A stretch of DNA of 64,000 bases from Escherichia coli (GCF_016903815.1 NZ_CP069973.1); one strand, 5' to 3'. Numbered from the stretch's first letter, positions 40,703-45,626 are shown. Translations and numbers: made by a program. Notes: generated by a model from the sequence alone, not told the origin.

Positions 40703-41827
40703 TTACGCCATTGTCCCAATCGTCTTCCTAAATCGCAGCAGTGCGATGGTGAAAAACGCGCCGCCAATTGCCATCAGCGTCAGGAACTGCGGCCAGACGA
40801 TTTCGAATCCGGCACCCCGGTAGAGGATGGCCTGCGCGAGGCTAACAAAGTGTGTCGTCGGCATGGTCAGCATAATGTCCTGCACCATCTGCGGCATACT
40901 TTCGCGCGGCGTGGATCCACCGGAAAGCATTTGCAGCGGCAGCAGCACCAGAATCACCAGCAGCCCCAGTTGCGGCATTGAACGCGCTATCGTCCCCATA
41001 AAAATGCCGATTGACGTGGTGGCAAACAGACTGAGCGCCACGCCCAGCATAAACAGCGGGATCGAGCCTTCAATCGGTACGCCCAGCACGCCTTTTACCA
41101 TCAGCACCAGCGATAATCCCGATACCACCAGCACCACCAGCCCCATCGACCAGATCTTCGCCATCATGATCTCAAACGGCGTTATCGGCATCACCAGTAA
41201 GTGTTCCACCGTGCCGTGTTCACGCTCGCGGATCAGCGCCGATCCGGTCAATACAATCGCCAGCATAGTAATGTTGTTGATGATCGCCATCACCCCGCCA
41301 AACCACGCGGGATCGAGGTTCGGGTTAAAGCGCATCCGGGTTTCCAGCGATACCAACGGTTCGCTATTATCACGGTAGCGCGCGACAAAGCTGTTCACTT
41401 CACCGTTGATAATATTCTGGATATACCCATTGCCGGTAAATGCCTGGCTCATGCGCGTGGCATCGACGTTCACCTGAATATCTGGCTGGCGTCCGGCGAG
41501 GACATCACGCTGAAAATTAGGCGGAATATTTATCGCGAAGGTATAGCGTCCGGCGTCCAGCCCGGCATCCATCTCATCGGCGGTGATCATCTCCGGTGGC
41601 AAAAACCACGGGCGATAGAAGCTGTTAACGATCCTGTTCGATAACTGCGATTGATCCATATCGGCAATGGCGATCGGCGCGAGGTTCAACGATCCTGGCG
41701 TAACGGTCGCTGACGAATACACCGACACCGTAAACGAGAAGACAATCAGCGTCAGCATCGCTTTATCACCGAGCAAACTGCGCAACTCTTTGATACCCAG
41801 ATTAAAAATATTGCGTAAATGGCGCAT
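40703..41827 (-). CDS. yhhJ: ABC-2 type transporter permease YhhJ
   Basis: Track ORF 40703..41911 trimmed to [17 protein letters not shown]... (374 aa); start overlaps rbbA stop. Confidence 0.87.
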   Translation of the reverse strand: MRHLRNIFNLGIKELRSLLGDKAMLTLIVFSFTVSVYSSATVTPGSLNLAPIAIADMDQSQLSNRIVNSFYRPWFLPPEMITADEMDAGLDAGRYTFAINIPPNFQRDVLAGRQPDIQVNVDATRMSQAFTGNGYIQNIINGEVNSFVARYRDNSEPLVSLETRMRFNPNLDPAWFGGVMAIINNITMLAIVLTGSALIREREHGTVEHLLVMPITPFEIMMAKIWSMGLVVLVVSGLSLVLMVKGVLGVPIEGSIPLFMLGVALSLFATTSIGIFMGTIARSMPQLGLLVILVLLPLQMLSGGSTPRESMPQMVQDIMLTMPTTHFVSLAQAILYRGAGFEIVWPQFLTLMAIGGAFFTIALLRFRKTIGTMA

Positions 41828-44562
41828 CATCCCTCCTGTTTTTTCAGCAGCAGGATGCTTAAGCCCATCACCAGCGGGATGGCTATCAGCAACGGGATAA
41901 AAAGTTGCCACAAATCAGTCAAATCCAGCGCCTTCGAGAACGTCCCGCGGGCAATAGTCAGAAAATGACTGGTCGGGTAAACCTCGCCGATCCAGCGTCC
42001 TGGACCTTCCAGCGAAGCTACCGGATCAATCATCCCGGAAAACTGTGTCGCCGGGATCAACGTGATAATCGCCGTACCGAAAATAGCGGCAATCTGGCTT
42101 TTCATAAAGGTGGAGATCAGCAGCCCCATTCCGGTGGCGATGATGATATACAGCAGCGCCGCCAGGGTGAGCGTCAGGAAACTGCCTTTATGCGGTACGC
42201 CAAACACAAACACCGACAGGCCGCAGAGCAGGAAAAAGTTCAGCATCCCCAGCGCGATGTACGGTAGCTGTTTGCCAAGCAAAAATTCGCTACGGGTGGT
42301 GGGAGTCACGTAAAGGTTGATAATCGACCCCAACTCTTTTTCCCGCACCACGCTAAGGGCGCTTAGCATTGACGGGATCATCATCAGCAGAAGCGGGATC
42401 ACCGCCGGAACAATCGCTGGCAGGCTTTTTACGTCCGGGTTATAGCGATAGCGCGTCTCAATGTTCATCAGCCCGCTTTGGCTGGAGGGTGTGGATTGTC
42501 GGCTCGCCACATCCTGTAGCCAGCTCTGGTGCATAGCCTGCACGTAACCTTTTACCGTTTCGGCACGACTGGGCATCGCACCGTCGATCCAGACACCGAG
42601 TTCCACAGGCGTACCACGCGCGATATCGCGCCCGAAATTGGGTGGGATCTCAATCGCCACCGTGATATCGCCCGCACGCATCCGGCGATCCAGTTCGTCA
42701 TAACTGGTGAGCGGTGGTTGTTCGATAAAGTAACGGGAACCGGAGAGATTGAGCGTCCACGCCTGGCTACTGACGGTCTGGTCGCGGTCAAGCACCGCAA
42801 AGCGCAGGTTTTCCACATCCATACTGATGCCGTAACCCATTATCAGCATCAGGATCACCGTTCCCATCAGCGCCAGCGTCGAACGTACCGGATCGCGTCG
42901 CAGTTCCAGTGCTTCGCGACGGCTGTAGCTAAACAGACGGCGCAGACTAAATCCCTGACGCGGCGCGTGGGTGGCGTCGTGTACCACGGGCGGCGCTTCG
43001 GCTTCGCTGCTCTGCCCTGCCGCTTCCTGCAAATAGGCGATAAATGCCTCTTCCAGACTGGCGGCTCCGCGTTTCTCAACCAACTCCTGCGGTGTACCGC
43101 TGGCGAGCACTTTTCCGGCGTGCATCAGTGAGATACGGTCGCAACGTTCCGCTTCGTTCATAAAGTGGGTGGAGATGAAGATAGTCACTTTGTCCTGACG
43201 CGAGAGATCGACCATCAACTGCCAGAACATATCCCTCGCCACCGGATCGACACCAGAAGTAGGCTCATCGAGGATTAACATCTCCGGGCGATGAATCACC
43301 GCCACCGCCAGCGAAAGCCGCTGGCGAATGCCGAGCGGTAATGACTCCGGCAGAACATCTTCAACGTCGTTGAGCTTAAAACGCTCGCTCATTTCAGCCA
43401 CTCGCGCGGGAATTTCCGCTTCCGGGATGTGAAACAAACGGGCATGTAACTCAAGGTTTTGCCGCACGGTGAGTTCGTTATAGAGCGAAAACGCCTGCGA
43501 CATATAGCCTACCCGACGGCGAGTATCGATATCTTTTGGATCAACCGGTTGCCCGAACAGCCACGCCTCACCTTCGCTGGCGGGCAGCAATCCGGTAAGC
43601 ATTTTCATGGTGGTGGATTTACCGCAGCCGTTCGAACCAAGAAAACCAAAAATCTCCCCGCGTGGAATGCGGAAATTGACGTGATCAACGGCAACGAAGG
43701 AACCAAAACGCATGGTCAGATCGCGCGCTTCGATGGCAATCTCTGCGTTTTCAGGTTGATATGGTGGGATCACTACCGCCTGATGCGCCTGGCGTTGCGC
43801 TTGCGGTAACAGATTTATAAATGCTTCTTCCAGCGTGGCGCTTTGCGTTTGCTGCCGCAGCTCTTCGGCGCTGCCGGTTGCCAGCACTTCTCCGGCATTC
43901 ATCGCTACCAGCCAGTCGAAGCGTTCGGCCTCTTCCATGTAGGCGGTGGCGACCAGCACGCTCATATTGCTCTGCCGCTGGCGAATACTGTCGATCAGAT
44001 CCCAGAACTGGGCGCGGGAGAGCGGGTCAACCCCCGTTGTTGGCTCATCAAGAATCAACAGTTCCGGGTCGTGGATTAACGCACAGCACAGCCCCAGTTT
44101 TTGCTTCATCCCGCCGGAGAGTTTCCCTGCCGGACGATCACGAAACGGTGCTAACCCGGTGCTGGTCAGCAGCTCATTAATTCGCACTTCTCGCTCCGCT
44201 TTGTCGTGACCGAACAGGCGGGCGAAAAAATCGACGTTTTCATACACCGACAAGGTGTGGTAGAGGTTTTTACCCAGCCCCTGCGGCATCCAAGCGATGC
44301 GCGGGCAAACGTCGCGTCGATGCTTCGGGTCGCGCATATCGCCGCCCAGCACGATCACATTGCCCTGCTCAATGACACGAGCACCGGAAATCAATGACAA
44401 TAAACTCGACTTCCCGACGCCATCCGGACCAATCAGCCCAACCATGCAGCGGGTCGGAATATCGAGAGTGATATTGTTCAGCGCAACGGTTTTTCCATAA
44501 TGCTGGCTCACGCCCGCCAGTTGCGCGACAGGCGGGACGGGAACCAGTTCCAGATGCGTCAT
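41827..44562 (-). CDS. rbbA: ribosome-associated ATPase RbbA (tandem ABC ATPase fused to permease domain)
   Basis: 911-aa track ORF; two Walker A motifs ([18 protein letters not shown]). Confidence 0.92.
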
Positions 44563-45626
44563 TGCGGCAACCTCACCACCAGGTCGTCAGGCCACGGAAG
44601 TTCTTCATTCACCCGCACCCACGCTACGCCCGGCAAACCGGTTTTGACATATTCCAGATGCTGCTGGAGTAATTCCGGTGGGATACGCGCTTTGACGCGG
44701 AACATCAGTTTCAGCCGCTCATCGCTGGTTTCGACGGTTTTTGGCGTGAACTGGGCGACGCTGGCGACAAAACTGATGGTTGCAGGAATACGCAGATCTG
44801 GCGCGGCATCGAGGATCAGCCGGGCTTCACCGCCCAGTTTCAGCGTGCCCGCCTGTTCGGTTGGCAGGAAGAAGGTCATATAGACGTCGCTCAGATCGAC
44901 CATATTCAGCACCCGACCGCCTGCCGCCAGCACTTCCCCTGGCTCGGCAACCCGATACTGCACGCGTCCGTCACGCGGGGCTTTCAGTTCGCTGTCATCG
45001 ATATCTGCGGCAATGCGCCGTTCAGTGGCTTGTGCGGCTTCGACGCGTGTTTGCGCCTGAATGATATTGGTGCGTGCCGCTTCTATAGCGGCTTTAGAAG
45101 CCGAAACCTGGGCTTTTGCTGATTCCAGCGCAGCTCGGGCGCTCTCAGCGGCGGCGCGATCGTCATCCAGCTGTTGCGCAGAAATAGCCCCTCGTTGGGC
45201 GAGCGAACGGGAACGCGTATGACGTTTGGCAACGGAGTCCAGTTCGGCCTGGCGTTGATTGACCAGCGACTGTGCGGCACGAGTTTCGCTTTGGCGTTGC
45301 TCCAGCAAAGCCTGCGCGGCGGCAACGGCGCTTTGTGCTTCTTTGATTTGCGCGATGGCTTCCAGTCGCTGTTCCTGCAACACGCGAGTATCCATCTTCG
45401 CCAGCACTTCACCTTCGCGAACAAACTGGCCTTCTTTCACCAGAATGGTGTCGATACGCCCGGCAATTTTGCTGGCGATATCCACTTCCGTCGCTTCAAT
45501 GCGCCCATTGCTGACGGCAAAGCCTTCCGGCACACCCGCTGGGCGCAACAGCCACCACGCCACGATAGCGGCCACCGCCAGTAACCCGACAACCCACCAC
45601 GCCAGATGGCGCTTACTCTTATCCAT
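44559..45626 (-). CDS. yhiI: HlyD-family membrane fusion protein YhiI
   Basis: 355-aa track ORF with TM anchor and coiled-coil region. Confidence 0.9.

What the first reader, a model, noticed from the sequence alone, without database searches (positions are those of the whole stretch)
40703..45626. yhiI-rbbA-yhhJ exporter-like operon with overlapping stop/start codons
A membrane-fusion protein, a fused double-ATPase/permease and an ABC-2 permease are translationally coupled (4-nt and 1-nt overlaps). The operon lies between the Rhs island and the yhiJ/yhiL pair, and its substrate is not evident from sequence.
Basis: partly seen in the sequence, partly recalled or inferred. Interest (0 to 1): 0.3.

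Follow-up and report, generated by a model that had tools for sequence, protein, structure and literature searches.

The report
Known E. coli yhiI-rbbA-yhhJ efflux operon
This is the long-annotated core E. coli operon yhiY-yhiI-rbbA-yhhJ, most likely an ATP-driven pump that spans the cell envelope, whose cargo is still unknown; it is not tied to the neighbouring yhiJ/yhiL genes, so the finding is ordinary.

Summary
On the minus strand lie yhiI (45626..44559), rbbA (44562..41827) and yhhJ (41827..40703), with ATGA (4-nt) and TGATG (1-nt) stop/start overlaps. The window is E. coli, 100% identical to strain 7/2.

The three genes are a paralogue of ybhGFSR. YhiI is an EmrA-like periplasmic adaptor. 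RbbA is a YbhF-like tandem ATPase fused to a YbhS-like ABC-2 permease. YhhJ is the second permease.

The adaptor–RbbA–permease module recurs across Proteobacteria, with an outer-membrane-factor gene beside it in about 21 of 80 loci. This supports a tripartite exporter.

The suggested link to yhiJ/yhiL fails. The operon is in 5413 of 5426 complete E. coli genomes and yhiJ/yhiL in about 4283. ST131 lacks both yhiJ/yhiL and the Rhs island. None of 80 homologous loci holds a DUF4049 gene.

- a 37-aa upstream ORF, yhiY, with published Rho-dependent attenuation;
- a conserved degenerate/consensus asymmetry of the two ATP sites;
- the weak basis of the "ribosome-associated" name (no ABCF linker; the key in vivo paper was retracted in 2025).

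The substrate remains unknown. Verdict: already known, low interest.

The parts
45960..45987 (-). Only sigma-70-like promoter match upstream of yhiY (TAGACA-16-TACTAT, with an extended -10 TG). It lies just downstream of the yhiJ stop.
   Evidence: This is a consensus match only; the number of matches in the region is no higher than in shuffles.
45689..45802 (-). yhiY, a 37-aa upstream/leader ORF (MMTTLLPVFTKPSTLALNALRAGRICRFLLIPDGRIR) with AGGA 8 nt upstream. It ends 62 nt before the yhiI ATG.
   Evidence: Annotated in RefSeq. Pfam PF23514 YhiY, E=1.5e-28. Translation validated by ribosome profiling (bioRxiv 10.1101/511675). It stays with the operon in ST131 and in E. albertii.
45706..45810 (-). 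The only C-rich, G-poor (rut-like) stretch of the leader transcript. It coincides with the yhiY ORF.
   Evidence: C/G ratio in 60-nt windows is 1.3-1.9 here and 0.3-1.0 elsewhere in the leader and early yhiI. A Rho-dependent 3' end less than 200 nt downstream of yhiY and a more than 2-fold increase of a yhiI fusion in rho R66S are published (bioRxiv 10.1101/2020.07.18.207399).
44559..45626 (-). yhiI, a periplasmic adaptor (membrane-fusion protein). It has an N-terminal TM anchor (aa 3-27), a lipoyl domain, a 64+61-residue alpha-hairpin (aa 81-144 and 150-210) and a beta-barrel, and no membrane-proximal domain.
   Evidence: Pfam HlyD_3, HlyD_D23 and Biotin_lipoyl_2. 30% identity to YbhG. AlphaFold model pLDDT 93.8. 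Best solved match is EmrA in EmrAB-TolC (8ZAL/8ZAR, E about 1e-21), then MacA.
44559..44562 (-). ATGA overlap of the yhiI stop and the rbbA start.
   Evidence: A 4-nt overlap is possible in 43 of 67 homologous loci.
43813..44529 (-). rbbA NBD1 (aa 12-250). Walker A GPDGVGKS (K51), Q94, canonical signature LSGGM (148-152) and Walker B D172-E173. The H-loop histidine is replaced by Ala207.
   Evidence: The same pattern holds in 13 diverse full-length homologues and in YbhF.
43027..43737 (-). rbbA NBD2 (aa 276-512). Walker A GSNGCGKS (K315), Q356, degenerate signature LPLGI (408-412), Walker B D432-E433 and canonical H-loop H466.
41830..42945 (-). rbbA ABC-2 transmembrane domain (aa 540-911). TM1 is at about 558-583, a periplasmic domain of about 125 aa follows, then TM2-TM6.
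   Evidence: PF12698 ABC2_membrane_3, E=1.6e-39. 32% identity to YbhS. Hydropathy scan.
41827..41827 (-). Single shared base of the rbbA TGA and the yhhJ ATG (TGATG). AGGAGG lies 4 nt upstream of the ATG.
   Evidence: In 60 of 66 homologous loci this junction is within -4..+4 nt.
40703..41827 (-). yhhJ, the second ABC-2 permease. TM1 is at aa 18-42, an extracytoplasmic domain at aa 43-173, then TM2-TM6.
   Evidence: PF12698, E=9e-35. 24% identity to YbhR. AlphaFold model pLDDT 84. Best solved matches are insect ABCH-9C (ceramide-bound, 8YZP), then ABCA3/1/4/7, NosY, ABCG25 and KpsM.

Best explanation
yhiY-yhiI-rbbA-yhhJ encodes an envelope-spanning, ATP-driven exporter of the ABC-2 (type V) class, a paralogue of E. 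coli YbhGFSR.

Assembly (inferred from domain content):
- One RbbA (NBD1-NBD2-TMD) plus one YhhJ (TMD) make a complete transporter with two NBDs and two unlike TMDs. Each TMD carries a periplasmic domain between TM1 and TM2.
- YhiI is anchored in the inner membrane by one helix. It has a long alpha-hairpin like EmrA and probably forms the periplasmic tube that docks on an outer-membrane factor. In E. coli this would be TolC, since no such gene lies in the operon.

ATP sites (read from sequence):
- Site 1 (NBD1 Walker A/B with the NBD2 signature) is degenerate. It combines signature LPLGI with Ala207 in place of the H-loop histidine.
- Site 2 (NBD2 Walker A/B and H466 with the NBD1 LSGGM) is canonical. 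One catalytic site therefore probably drives transport.

Substrate: unknown. The fold relatives (ABCH, ABCA and ABCG lipid or amphiphile exporters) and the paralogue's reported drug efflux suggest a lipophilic or amphipathic small molecule taken from the inner membrane or periplasm. This is inference.

Regulation: expression is probably held low by Rho-dependent premature termination in the leader. Translation of the 37-aa uORF yhiY covers the only rut-like stretch. The Rho effect is published; the mechanism is inferred.
For: Domains:
- HlyD-type adaptor; two ABC_tran plus ABC2_membrane_3; ABC2_membrane_3.
- RbbA passes the NCBIfam equivalog NF033858 (1594.9 bits against a cutoff of 1050). Its NBDs are closest to the DrrA, NodI and ABCA exporter classes.

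Paralogy in the same gene order: YhiI~YbhG 30%, RbbA N-terminal half~YbhF about 40%, RbbA TMD~YbhS 32%, YhhJ~YbhR 24%.

Conservation of the module:
- Of 80 loci from alpha-, beta-, gamma- and delta-proteobacteria, Myxococcota and Lentisphaerae, 75 had a full RbbA ORF. Of these, 67 have the adaptor directly upstream and 66 the permease directly downstream.
- Junction spacing is conserved.
- An OEP (PF02321) gene lies directly beside the module in about 21 of 80 loci, and in one further metagenomic locus.

Structure models:
- The YhiI model (pLDDT 93.8) best matches EmrA in the EmrAB-TolC pump.
- The YhhJ model best matches type V exporters that have an extracellular domain.

ATP-site asymmetry is conserved in 13 diverse homologues and in YbhF.

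Literature:
- RbbA-mCherry is spread over the membrane (PMC6788730).
- YbhFSR is reported to export cephalosporins and tetracyclines (PMC8277102; abstract of PMC7190983).
- yhiY is translated, there is a 3' end less than 200 nt downstream of it, and a yhiI fusion rises more than 2-fold in rho R66S.
- The only C>G stretch of the leader lies inside yhiY.
Against: - No transport assay, substrate or TolC dependence has been reported for this system in the literature I could search.
- No solved structure exists for any adaptor-dependent ABC-2 pump, so the architecture is inferred.
- Most homologous loci (about 59 of 80) have no outer-membrane-factor gene nearby.
- A truncated RbbA lacking its membrane domain has modest effects on in vitro translation (PMC12096078), so a second role is not excluded.
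- The leader RNA fold is not more stable than shuffles (z = -1.24).
- The uORF mechanism has not been tested by anyone.
Confidence: 0.78

Rival explanations
1. RbbA is chiefly a ribosome-bound translation factor, as its name says. Its tandem ATPase would bind near the ribosomal E site and promote release of deacyl-tRNA, as ABCF proteins act on the ribosome. The transporter-like parts would be secondary.
For: - Older biochemistry from one laboratory, as cited in PMC3083400 and PMC12096078.
- In 2025, a truncated RbbA lacking the membrane domain changed in vitro yields of difficult peptides by 0.6- to 2.1-fold (PMC12096078).
Against: - RbbA has no ABCF linker. PF12848 is absent at E<=10, whereas the control ABCF protein YbiT scores 5e-24.
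- It is 23% identical to YbiT, with many gaps, against about 40% to the exporter ATPase YbhF.
- The ATPase is fused to a six-helix ABC-2 permease. It is flanked by an adaptor and a second permease in nearly every genome examined, often with an outer-membrane factor as well.
- The full-length protein is membrane-localised.
- The only in vivo paper on a ribosome/YhjD role was retracted in 2025 for image concerns (PMC12169533).
- The in vitro effects are small and come from a truncated protein. [quoted passage not shown]
Confidence: 0.08
2. The operon works together with its accessory neighbours yhiJ/yhiL (DUF4049) or the Rhs island, for example by exporting their product or conferring immunity to it.
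For: Only adjacency in this strain and in K-12-like strains. FlhDC gSELEX places a binding peak in the yhiI/yhiJ/yhiM region.
Against: - The operon is in 5413 of 5426 E. coli genomes; yhiJ/yhiL DNA is in 4283, and half of those copies are only 90-95% identical.
- ST131 has yhhJ-rbbA-yhiI-yhiY directly between a PTS/aldolase island and yhiM.
- No YhiJ or YhiL homologue lies in any of 80 homologous loci, including Citrobacter with 8-kb flanks.
- GC content is 53-59% for the operon and about 34% for yhiJ/yhiL.
- No PADLOC hit for YhiJ or YhiL.
Confidence: 0.03
3. It is an inner-membrane ABC-2 exporter or lipid extractor that does not use TolC. The adaptor would only cap or gate the periplasmic domains, as in Gram-positive adaptor-dependent ABC systems, and would deliver cargo to the periplasm or the outer-membrane inner leaflet.
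For: - Most homologous loci lack an adjacent outer-membrane-factor gene.
- The nearest solved permease folds are lipid exporters that work without a tunnel (ABCH-9C, ABCA).
- YhiI lacks a membrane-proximal domain.
Against: - About 21 of 80 loci do place an OEP gene directly in the operon.
- The YhiI hairpin is long (about 62 residues per helix), and its best structural match is EmrA captured in complex with TolC.
- E. coli pumps commonly borrow an unlinked tolC (established knowledge).
Confidence: 0.11

Closest known systems
E. coli YbhG-YbhF-YbhS-YbhR (CecR-regulated ABC-2 efflux system)
   Same: Same gene order and the same four modules: adaptor, tandem-NBD ATPase and two unlike ABC-2 permeases. 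Identities are 24-41%. The degenerate/consensus ATP-site pattern is the same.
   Different: - In RbbA the ATPase is fused to the YbhS-like permease.
- RbbA lacks the roughly 80-aa insert that YbhF has between its two NBDs.
- There is no TetR-type regulator gene; a uORF leader (yhiY) takes that position.
- YbhFSR has reported drug substrates; this system has none.
EmrA of the EmrAB-TolC pump (PDB 8ZAL, 8ZAR, 4TKO)
   Same: YhiI shares the domain plan: an N-terminal membrane anchor, a lipoyl domain, a long alpha-hairpin and a beta-barrel, with no membrane-proximal domain. EmrA is the best sequence and fold match.
   Different: Identity is only 18-19%. EmrA partners an MFS transporter, not an ABC-2 transporter.
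Type V ABC exporters with an extracytoplasmic domain (insect ABCH-9C, ABCA1/3/4/7)
   Same: The YhhJ model aligns over its whole length, periplasmic domain included, with ABCH-9C (E about 7e-12, TM-score 0.58, normalised by query length). The RbbA NBDs are closest to ABCA NBDs.
   Different: Those are eukaryotic lipid exporters with no adaptor and no outer-membrane partner. Similarity of fold does not show similarity of cargo.
MacAB-TolC (type VII ABC tripartite pump)
   Same: An ABC transporter with periplasmic domains, a hexameric adaptor and TolC. MacA is the second-best structural match for YhiI.
   Different: MacB has the FtsX/MacB four-helix fold and identical subunits. RbbA/YhhJ are six-helix ABC-2 domains and differ from each other.
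uORF/Rho attenuators such as mdtU-mdtJI and tnaC-tnaAB
   Same: A short translated ORF in the leader of a transporter operon, a Rho-dependent 3' end just downstream, and a rut-like stretch under the uORF.
   Different: No inducing signal or stalling motif is known for yhiY. In Citrobacter the peptide frame is not conserved across the leader.
ABCF translation factors (EttA, Uup, YbiT, YheS)
   Same: Two ABC ATPase domains in one chain. In vitro effects of truncated RbbA on translation have been reported.
   Different: RbbA has no PtIM/ABC_tran_Xtn linker, has a fused membrane domain and belongs to an exporter-class NBD lineage.

Membership tests
Adaptor-dependent ABC-2 exporter of the YbhGFSR type | A HlyD-family periplasmic adaptor is encoded directly upstream. 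| tested here: met
   Pfam HlyD_3 at 2.3e-17 and HlyD_D23 at 1e-13. 30% identity to YbhG. EmrA/MacA-like model.
Adaptor-dependent ABC-2 exporter of the YbhGFSR type | A tandem-NBD ATPase of the DrrA/ABCA exporter class. | tested here: met
   Two ABC_tran domains (4e-60). TIGR01188 drrA at 391 bits against a cutoff of 312. About 40% identity to YbhF.
Adaptor-dependent ABC-2 exporter of the YbhGFSR type | Two non-identical ABC-2 permease domains with a periplasmic domain after TM1. | tested here: met
   PF12698 in the RbbA C-terminal part (1.6e-39) and in YhhJ (9e-35). The two are 28% identical to each other. Model and hydropathy.
Adaptor-dependent ABC-2 exporter of the YbhGFSR type | The subunits are co-inherited as one module. 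| tested here: met
   Of the 75 loci (out of 80) with a full RbbA ORF, 67 have the adaptor and 66 the permease adjacent on the same strand. Two further metagenomic loci show the same.
Adaptor-dependent ABC-2 exporter of the YbhGFSR type | It works with an outer-membrane factor (TolC family). | tested here: inconclusive
   An OEP gene lies directly beside the module in about 21 of 80 loci and in L006. There is none in the E. coli operon. TolC use in E. coli cannot be tested with these tools.
Adaptor-dependent ABC-2 exporter of the YbhGFSR type | ATP-dependent export of a defined substrate. | not testable with these tools
   No substrate is reported in the searchable literature.
NCBIfam NF033858 (RbbA equivalog) | The whole-protein score exceeds the curated cutoff. 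| tested here: met
   1594.9 bits against a cutoff of 1050, covering aa 12-910.
ABC transporters with one degenerate and one consensus ATP site | Non-canonical signature and/or catalytic residues are confined to one composite site. | tested here: met
   NBD2 signature LPLGI and NBD1 Ala207 at the H-loop position both map to site 1. NBD1 LSGGM and NBD2 H466 and E433 map to site 2. The pattern is conserved in 13 homologues. The functional asymmetry itself was not tested.
ABCF ribosome-binding ATPases | An inter-NBD linker (PtIM; Pfam ABC_tran_Xtn, PF12848). | tested here: not met
   No PF12848 hit at E<=10 for RbbA 1-530, whereas the control YbiT gives 5e-24. The RbbA linker is about 25 aa.
ABCF ribosome-binding ATPases | A soluble protein without a transmembrane domain. 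| tested here: not met
   A fused six-helix ABC-2 domain. The RbbA-mCherry fusion is distributed throughout the membrane.
ABCF ribosome-binding ATPases | It binds the ribosomal E site and modulates translation. | not testable with these tools
   Only literature claims exist: small in vitro effects of truncated protein, and the in vivo paper was retracted.
uORF-dependent Rho attenuator | A translated short ORF lies in the 5' leader. | tested here: met
   The ORF with a Shine-Dalgarno sequence is present. Pfam YhiY. Translation shown by Weaver et al..
uORF-dependent Rho attenuator | Rho-dependent premature 3' end, and a rut-like C-rich, G-poor tract. | tested here: inconclusive
   The C>G tract lies only inside yhiY. 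The Rho effect and the 3' end are published. No rut mapping has been done, and the RNA fold is not significant.
Functional unit with DUF4049 genes yhiJ/yhiL | The genes co-occur across genomes. | tested here: not met
   5413 against 4283 of 5426 E. coli genomes. Absent in ST131. Absent from 80 loci of other species.

The most novel reading that the evidence does not exclude
The old ribosome link is real but has been misread. On this reading the membrane-anchored tandem ATPase of RbbA docks on translating or stalled ribosomes at the inner membrane. The pump would then couple export to translation, for example by co-translational hand-off of a peptide or by sensing ribosome-targeting compounds, with the yhiY leader peptide as the matching translation-sensing switch.

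A less exotic alternative is also open, at about 0.15: the pump extracts a membrane lipid or lipophilic metabolite and expels it through TolC, as its ABCH/ABCA-like permease fold hints.
Probability: 0.05. Interest if true: 0.75.

Novelty: already known. Interest (0 to 1): 0.2.

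Why it matters
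The operon is one of the few putative E. coli ABC exporters without a substrate, and it is core to the species.

Three points could be useful to specialists:
- The name "ribosome-associated ATPase", which propagates through thousands of genome annotations, rests on thin evidence, part of it now retracted. Comparative genomics argues plainly for a tripartite exporter.
- No adaptor-dependent ABC-2 pump has a solved structure. The conserved one-degenerate-site design gives a simple mutational prediction.
- The yhiY leader offers a tractable case of uORF/Rho control of an efflux operon, and could reveal the inducing signal and hence the substrate.

It is an annotated, ordinary operon.

Tried and rejected
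- The word-indexed protein search with RbbA was saturated by near-identical E. coli sequences and gave no diversity. I used the representative library and a genome scan instead.
- An Rfam scan of 40300-46200 found nothing above threshold. The single rli42 hit scored 25.7 bits against a gathering score of 80 and is chance.
- The promoter/terminator scan gave no more sites than shuffles, and no intrinsic terminator after yhhJ.
- The leader RNA fold is not more stable than shuffles (z = -1.24). With only four sequences, the consensus fold shows only 4 pairs with changes on both sides, so I make no structural claim.
- Clustering the neighbours of 80 loci found no recurrent biosynthetic or regulatory partner other than the outer-membrane factor. 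Acetate kinase, PTA-MaoC, PhaC and Usp recur in only 5-6 loci, so the pattern is too sparse to interpret.
- PADLOC gave only generic ABC-ATPase and coiled-coil hits for RbbA and YhiI, and nothing for YhiJ/YhiL.
- Literature leads to a substrate went nowhere: a microcin C GWAS SNP in rbbA; a large deletion selected under paraquat; a porphyrin docking study in which YhhJ was not among the transporters that docked; a roughly 2-fold rise of yhiI in a butanol-stress transcriptome; and a riboswitch-entropy hit 6.6 kb away.
- I considered that the 1283-1286-aa RbbA-YhhJ fusions are a natural single-chain form. I rejected this as a general state. They are rare singletons caused by different frameshifts near the 3' end of rbbA.

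Full report
**What is there.** The window is E. coli chromosome, 100% identical over the region to strain 7/2. On the minus strand the ORF list and the sequence give three genes:
- yhiI, 45626..44559 (355 aa)
- rbbA, 44562..41827 (911 aa)
- yhhJ, 41827..40703 (374 aa)

These are exactly the finding's span. The yhiI stop and rbbA start overlap as ATGA. The rbbA stop and the annotated yhhJ start share one base (TGATG). Both downstream starts have their own Shine-Dalgarno sequences, GAGG and AGGAGG. Translational coupling is a reasonable inference from the overlaps, but it has not been shown.

**Domain content and paralogy.**
- YhiI is a HlyD-family adaptor.
- RbbA has two ABC ATPase domains followed by an ABC2_membrane_3 permease. 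It passes the curated RbbA equivalog model, 1594.9 bits against a cutoff of 1050.
- YhhJ is a second ABC2_membrane_3 permease.

Compared with the K-12 ybhGFSR region, the system is a paralogue in the same order:

| This operon | ybhGFSR partner | Identity |
|---|---|---|
| YhiI | YbhG | 30% |
| RbbA, N-terminal half | YbhF | about 40% |
| RbbA membrane domain | YbhS | 32% |
| YhhJ | YbhR | 24% |

RbbA is thus a YbhF-YbhS fusion. One RbbA plus one YhhJ would give a complete transporter with two ATPase domains and two unlike membrane domains.

**ATP sites.**
- NBD1 has a canonical signature LSGGM (148-152) but Ala207 where the H-loop histidine should be.
- NBD2 has a degenerate signature LPLGI (408-412) but a canonical H466.
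- Both NBDs keep Walker A lysines and Walker B Asp-Glu.

In an ABC dimer this places all the deviations in one composite site and leaves the other canonical. The same pattern occurs in YbhF and in 13 full-length homologues down to 32% identity. It is an old property of the family. It also plausibly explains why the two ATPase domains are kept in one chain. The catalytic asymmetry itself is inferred.

**Structure models.**
- YhiI (pLDDT 93.8) has a membrane helix (aa 3-27), a lipoyl domain, a hairpin of 64 and 61 residues, and a beta-barrel, with no membrane-proximal domain. Its best solved match is EmrA inside the EmrAB-TolC pump, followed by MacA.
- YhhJ (pLDDT 84) has an extracytoplasmic domain (aa 43-173) between TM1 and TM2. 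It best matches the insect lipid exporter ABCH-9C over its whole length. ABCA3/1/4/7, NosY, ABCG25 and KpsM follow, all of them type V ABC transporters.
- No RbbA, YbhFSR or other adaptor-dependent ABC-2 pump turned up among solved structures by sequence or fold search.

**Comparative genomics.** In the representative library, 13,507 proteins match RbbA at E<=1e-30. These include full-length NBD-NBD-TMD relatives at 34-59% identity.

A scan of one genome per species returned 80 loci. They come from alpha-, beta-, gamma- and delta-proteobacteria, Myxococcota, Lentisphaerae and others.
- Of the 75 loci with a full RbbA ORF, 67 have the adaptor directly upstream and 66 the second permease directly downstream.
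- The tight junctions are conserved. A 4-nt overlap is possible in 43 of 67 loci at the first junction. The second junction lies within -4..+4 nt in 60 of 66.
- An outer-membrane efflux protein gene (PF02321) sits directly beside the module in about 21 loci, and divergently upstream in a further metagenomic locus.

This is the strongest evidence here that the family works as an envelope-spanning pump. That E. coli borrows the unlinked TolC is inference. No other neighbour recurs widely, so context gives no clue to the substrate.

**The proposed link to yhiJ/yhiL.**
- The operon with yhiY is in 5413 of 5426 complete E. coli genomes. It is single-copy, chromosomal and 96.3-100% identical.
- yhiJ/yhiL DNA is detected in 4283 genomes (4160 at 80% coverage or more), and about half of those copies are only 90-95% identical.
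- In ST131 the order is nikR, a GntR/PTS/aldolase island, yhhJ-rbbA-yhiI-yhiY, then yhiM. It has neither the Rhs island nor yhiJ/yhiL.
- No YhiJ or YhiL homologue occurs in any of the 80 loci from other species.
- The operon has 53-59% GC and its flanks about 34-45%.

The operon is therefore a core block between two variable insertion sites.

A 37-aa ORF, yhiY (45802..45689), lies 62 nt upstream of yhiI. It is annotated in RefSeq and matches Pfam PF23514. It stays attached to the operon in ST131 and in E. albertii.

Its translation was shown by ribosome profiling (bioRxiv 10.1101/511675). Term-seq found a 3' end less than 200 nt downstream of it, and a yhiI fusion rose more than 2-fold in a rho mutant (bioRxiv 10.1101/2020.07.18.207399).

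I find that the only C-rich, G-poor stretch of the leader coincides with the yhiY ORF. This fits a model in which ribosomes translating yhiY mask a Rho loading site. That step is inference. The predicted RNA fold is not significant.

**The name.** RbbA stands for "ribosome-bound ATPase".
- The one in vivo study linking RbbA to ribosomes and YhjD was retracted in June 2025 over image concerns (PMC12169533).
- A 2025 study used RbbA without its membrane domain, because the full-length protein is unstable. It saw 0.6- to 2.1-fold effects on in vitro synthesis of difficult peptides (PMC12096078).
- Against membership in the ABCF translation factors, RbbA lacks the diagnostic linker domain. PF12848 is absent at E<=10, while the control YbiT scores 5e-24.
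- RbbA is 23% identical to YbiT against about 40% to YbhF.
- It is fused to a permease, and the full-length fusion protein is membrane-localised (PMC6788730).

I rate a primary ribosomal role at about 0.08.

**Expression and phenotype hints from the literature.**
- The yhiI promoter was induced in the mouse gut in EHEC (PMC6550539).
- yhiI was about 2-fold up in a butanol-stress transcriptome (PMC9063396).

Neither observation identifies a substrate.

**Verdict.** This is a correctly read, long-annotated core E. coli operon. It most likely encodes a TolC-linked ABC-2 efflux pump, paralogous to YbhGFSR, under uORF/Rho control. Its substrate is unknown, and it has no functional tie to its accessory neighbours. 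It is already known and of low interest as a scan finding. The residual value lies in the questionable gene name, the lack of any structure for this pump class, and the untested yhiY switch.

Noticed in passing
window 41827-41911 (3' end of rbbA / yhhJ start); proteins P0001-P0010, P0120: Rare E. coli assemblies encode 1247-1286-aa RbbA-YhhJ fusion proteins. They arise from different frameshifts in the last roughly 85 nt of rbbA, where the yhhJ reading frame is already open; some sit at the A-run in CTGAAAAAACAGG. Each is a singleton or a near-singleton, so they are probably sequencing errors or sporadic mutants.
   Followed up: partly
window 45627-45880 vs L008:6640-6963 (Citrobacter werkmanii), alignment A4: The yhiY leader is recognisably conserved in Citrobacter at three nucleotide blocks: the Shine-Dalgarno sequence plus the first 10 codons, the last codons, and the yhiI ribosome-binding region. 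A 23-nt insertion puts the conserved start and the conserved end in different frames. The uORF position is therefore kept but the peptide is not, which hints that RNA-level features matter as much as the peptide.
   Followed up: partly
window about 45825-45836 and about 45646-45657 (alignment A4, columns 76-87 and 263-274): A possible long-range helix of 9-11 bp (AUGCGUGUU.CA with UG.AACACGCGU) brackets the whole yhiY ORF. It is kept in all four aligned leaders, with one-sided changes only. A 9-bp hairpin also includes the yhiY stop codon. There are too few sequences to judge either.
   Followed up: partly
window 45769-45840, minus strand: A second small ORF (MSMRVSFTARNADDDNITTRFH, 22 aa) overlaps the yhiY start in another frame in E. 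coli and E. albertii. In Citrobacter this frame runs on for 57 aa and ends in the conserved FLLIPDG motif.
   Followed up: no
window 45992-49549 (yhiJ and the yhiL-like gene): Two divergent DUF4049 paralogues lie in a 34% GC block. YhiJ has a sub-threshold calcineurin-like phosphoesterase hit (E=0.006), and the second protein has an N-terminal DUF6860. Neither has a PADLOC match. The block is accessory in E. coli (4283 of 5426 genomes) and highly polymorphic.
   Followed up: partly
window 39236-40549; L003:1292-6892: The 3' flank of yhhJ is a variable site. This strain has IS1, a truncated ISAs1 transposase and Rhs remnants. ST131 has a GntR/PTS/FGGY-kinase/aldolase sugar island at the same place.
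   Followed up: partly
alignment A1, columns about 285-400; YbhF aa about 240-320: YbhF and the more distant RbbA-type proteins (P0139, P0141, P0148, P0159, P0152) carry an extra segment of 60-100 aa between NBD1 and NBD2. E. coli RbbA and its closer relatives lack it. The function of this segment is unknown.
   Followed up: no
L074, L085 and L017, flanks of the module: In 5-6 of the 80 loci (representatives are from Curvibacter and an Oxalobacteraceae MAG), the module sits near acetate kinase, a phosphotransacetylase-MaoC fusion, PHA synthase PhaC and a Usp protein. This may be a coincidence of synteny rather than a functional link.
   Followed up: no
window 40560-40702, minus strand: No canonical intrinsic terminator follows yhhJ. 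There is an AT-rich hairpin (GATGCGTA...TACGCAT), a T8 run about 25 nt later, and a REP-like GCCGGATAAGGCG fragment at the edge of the ISAs1 remnant.
   Followed up: no
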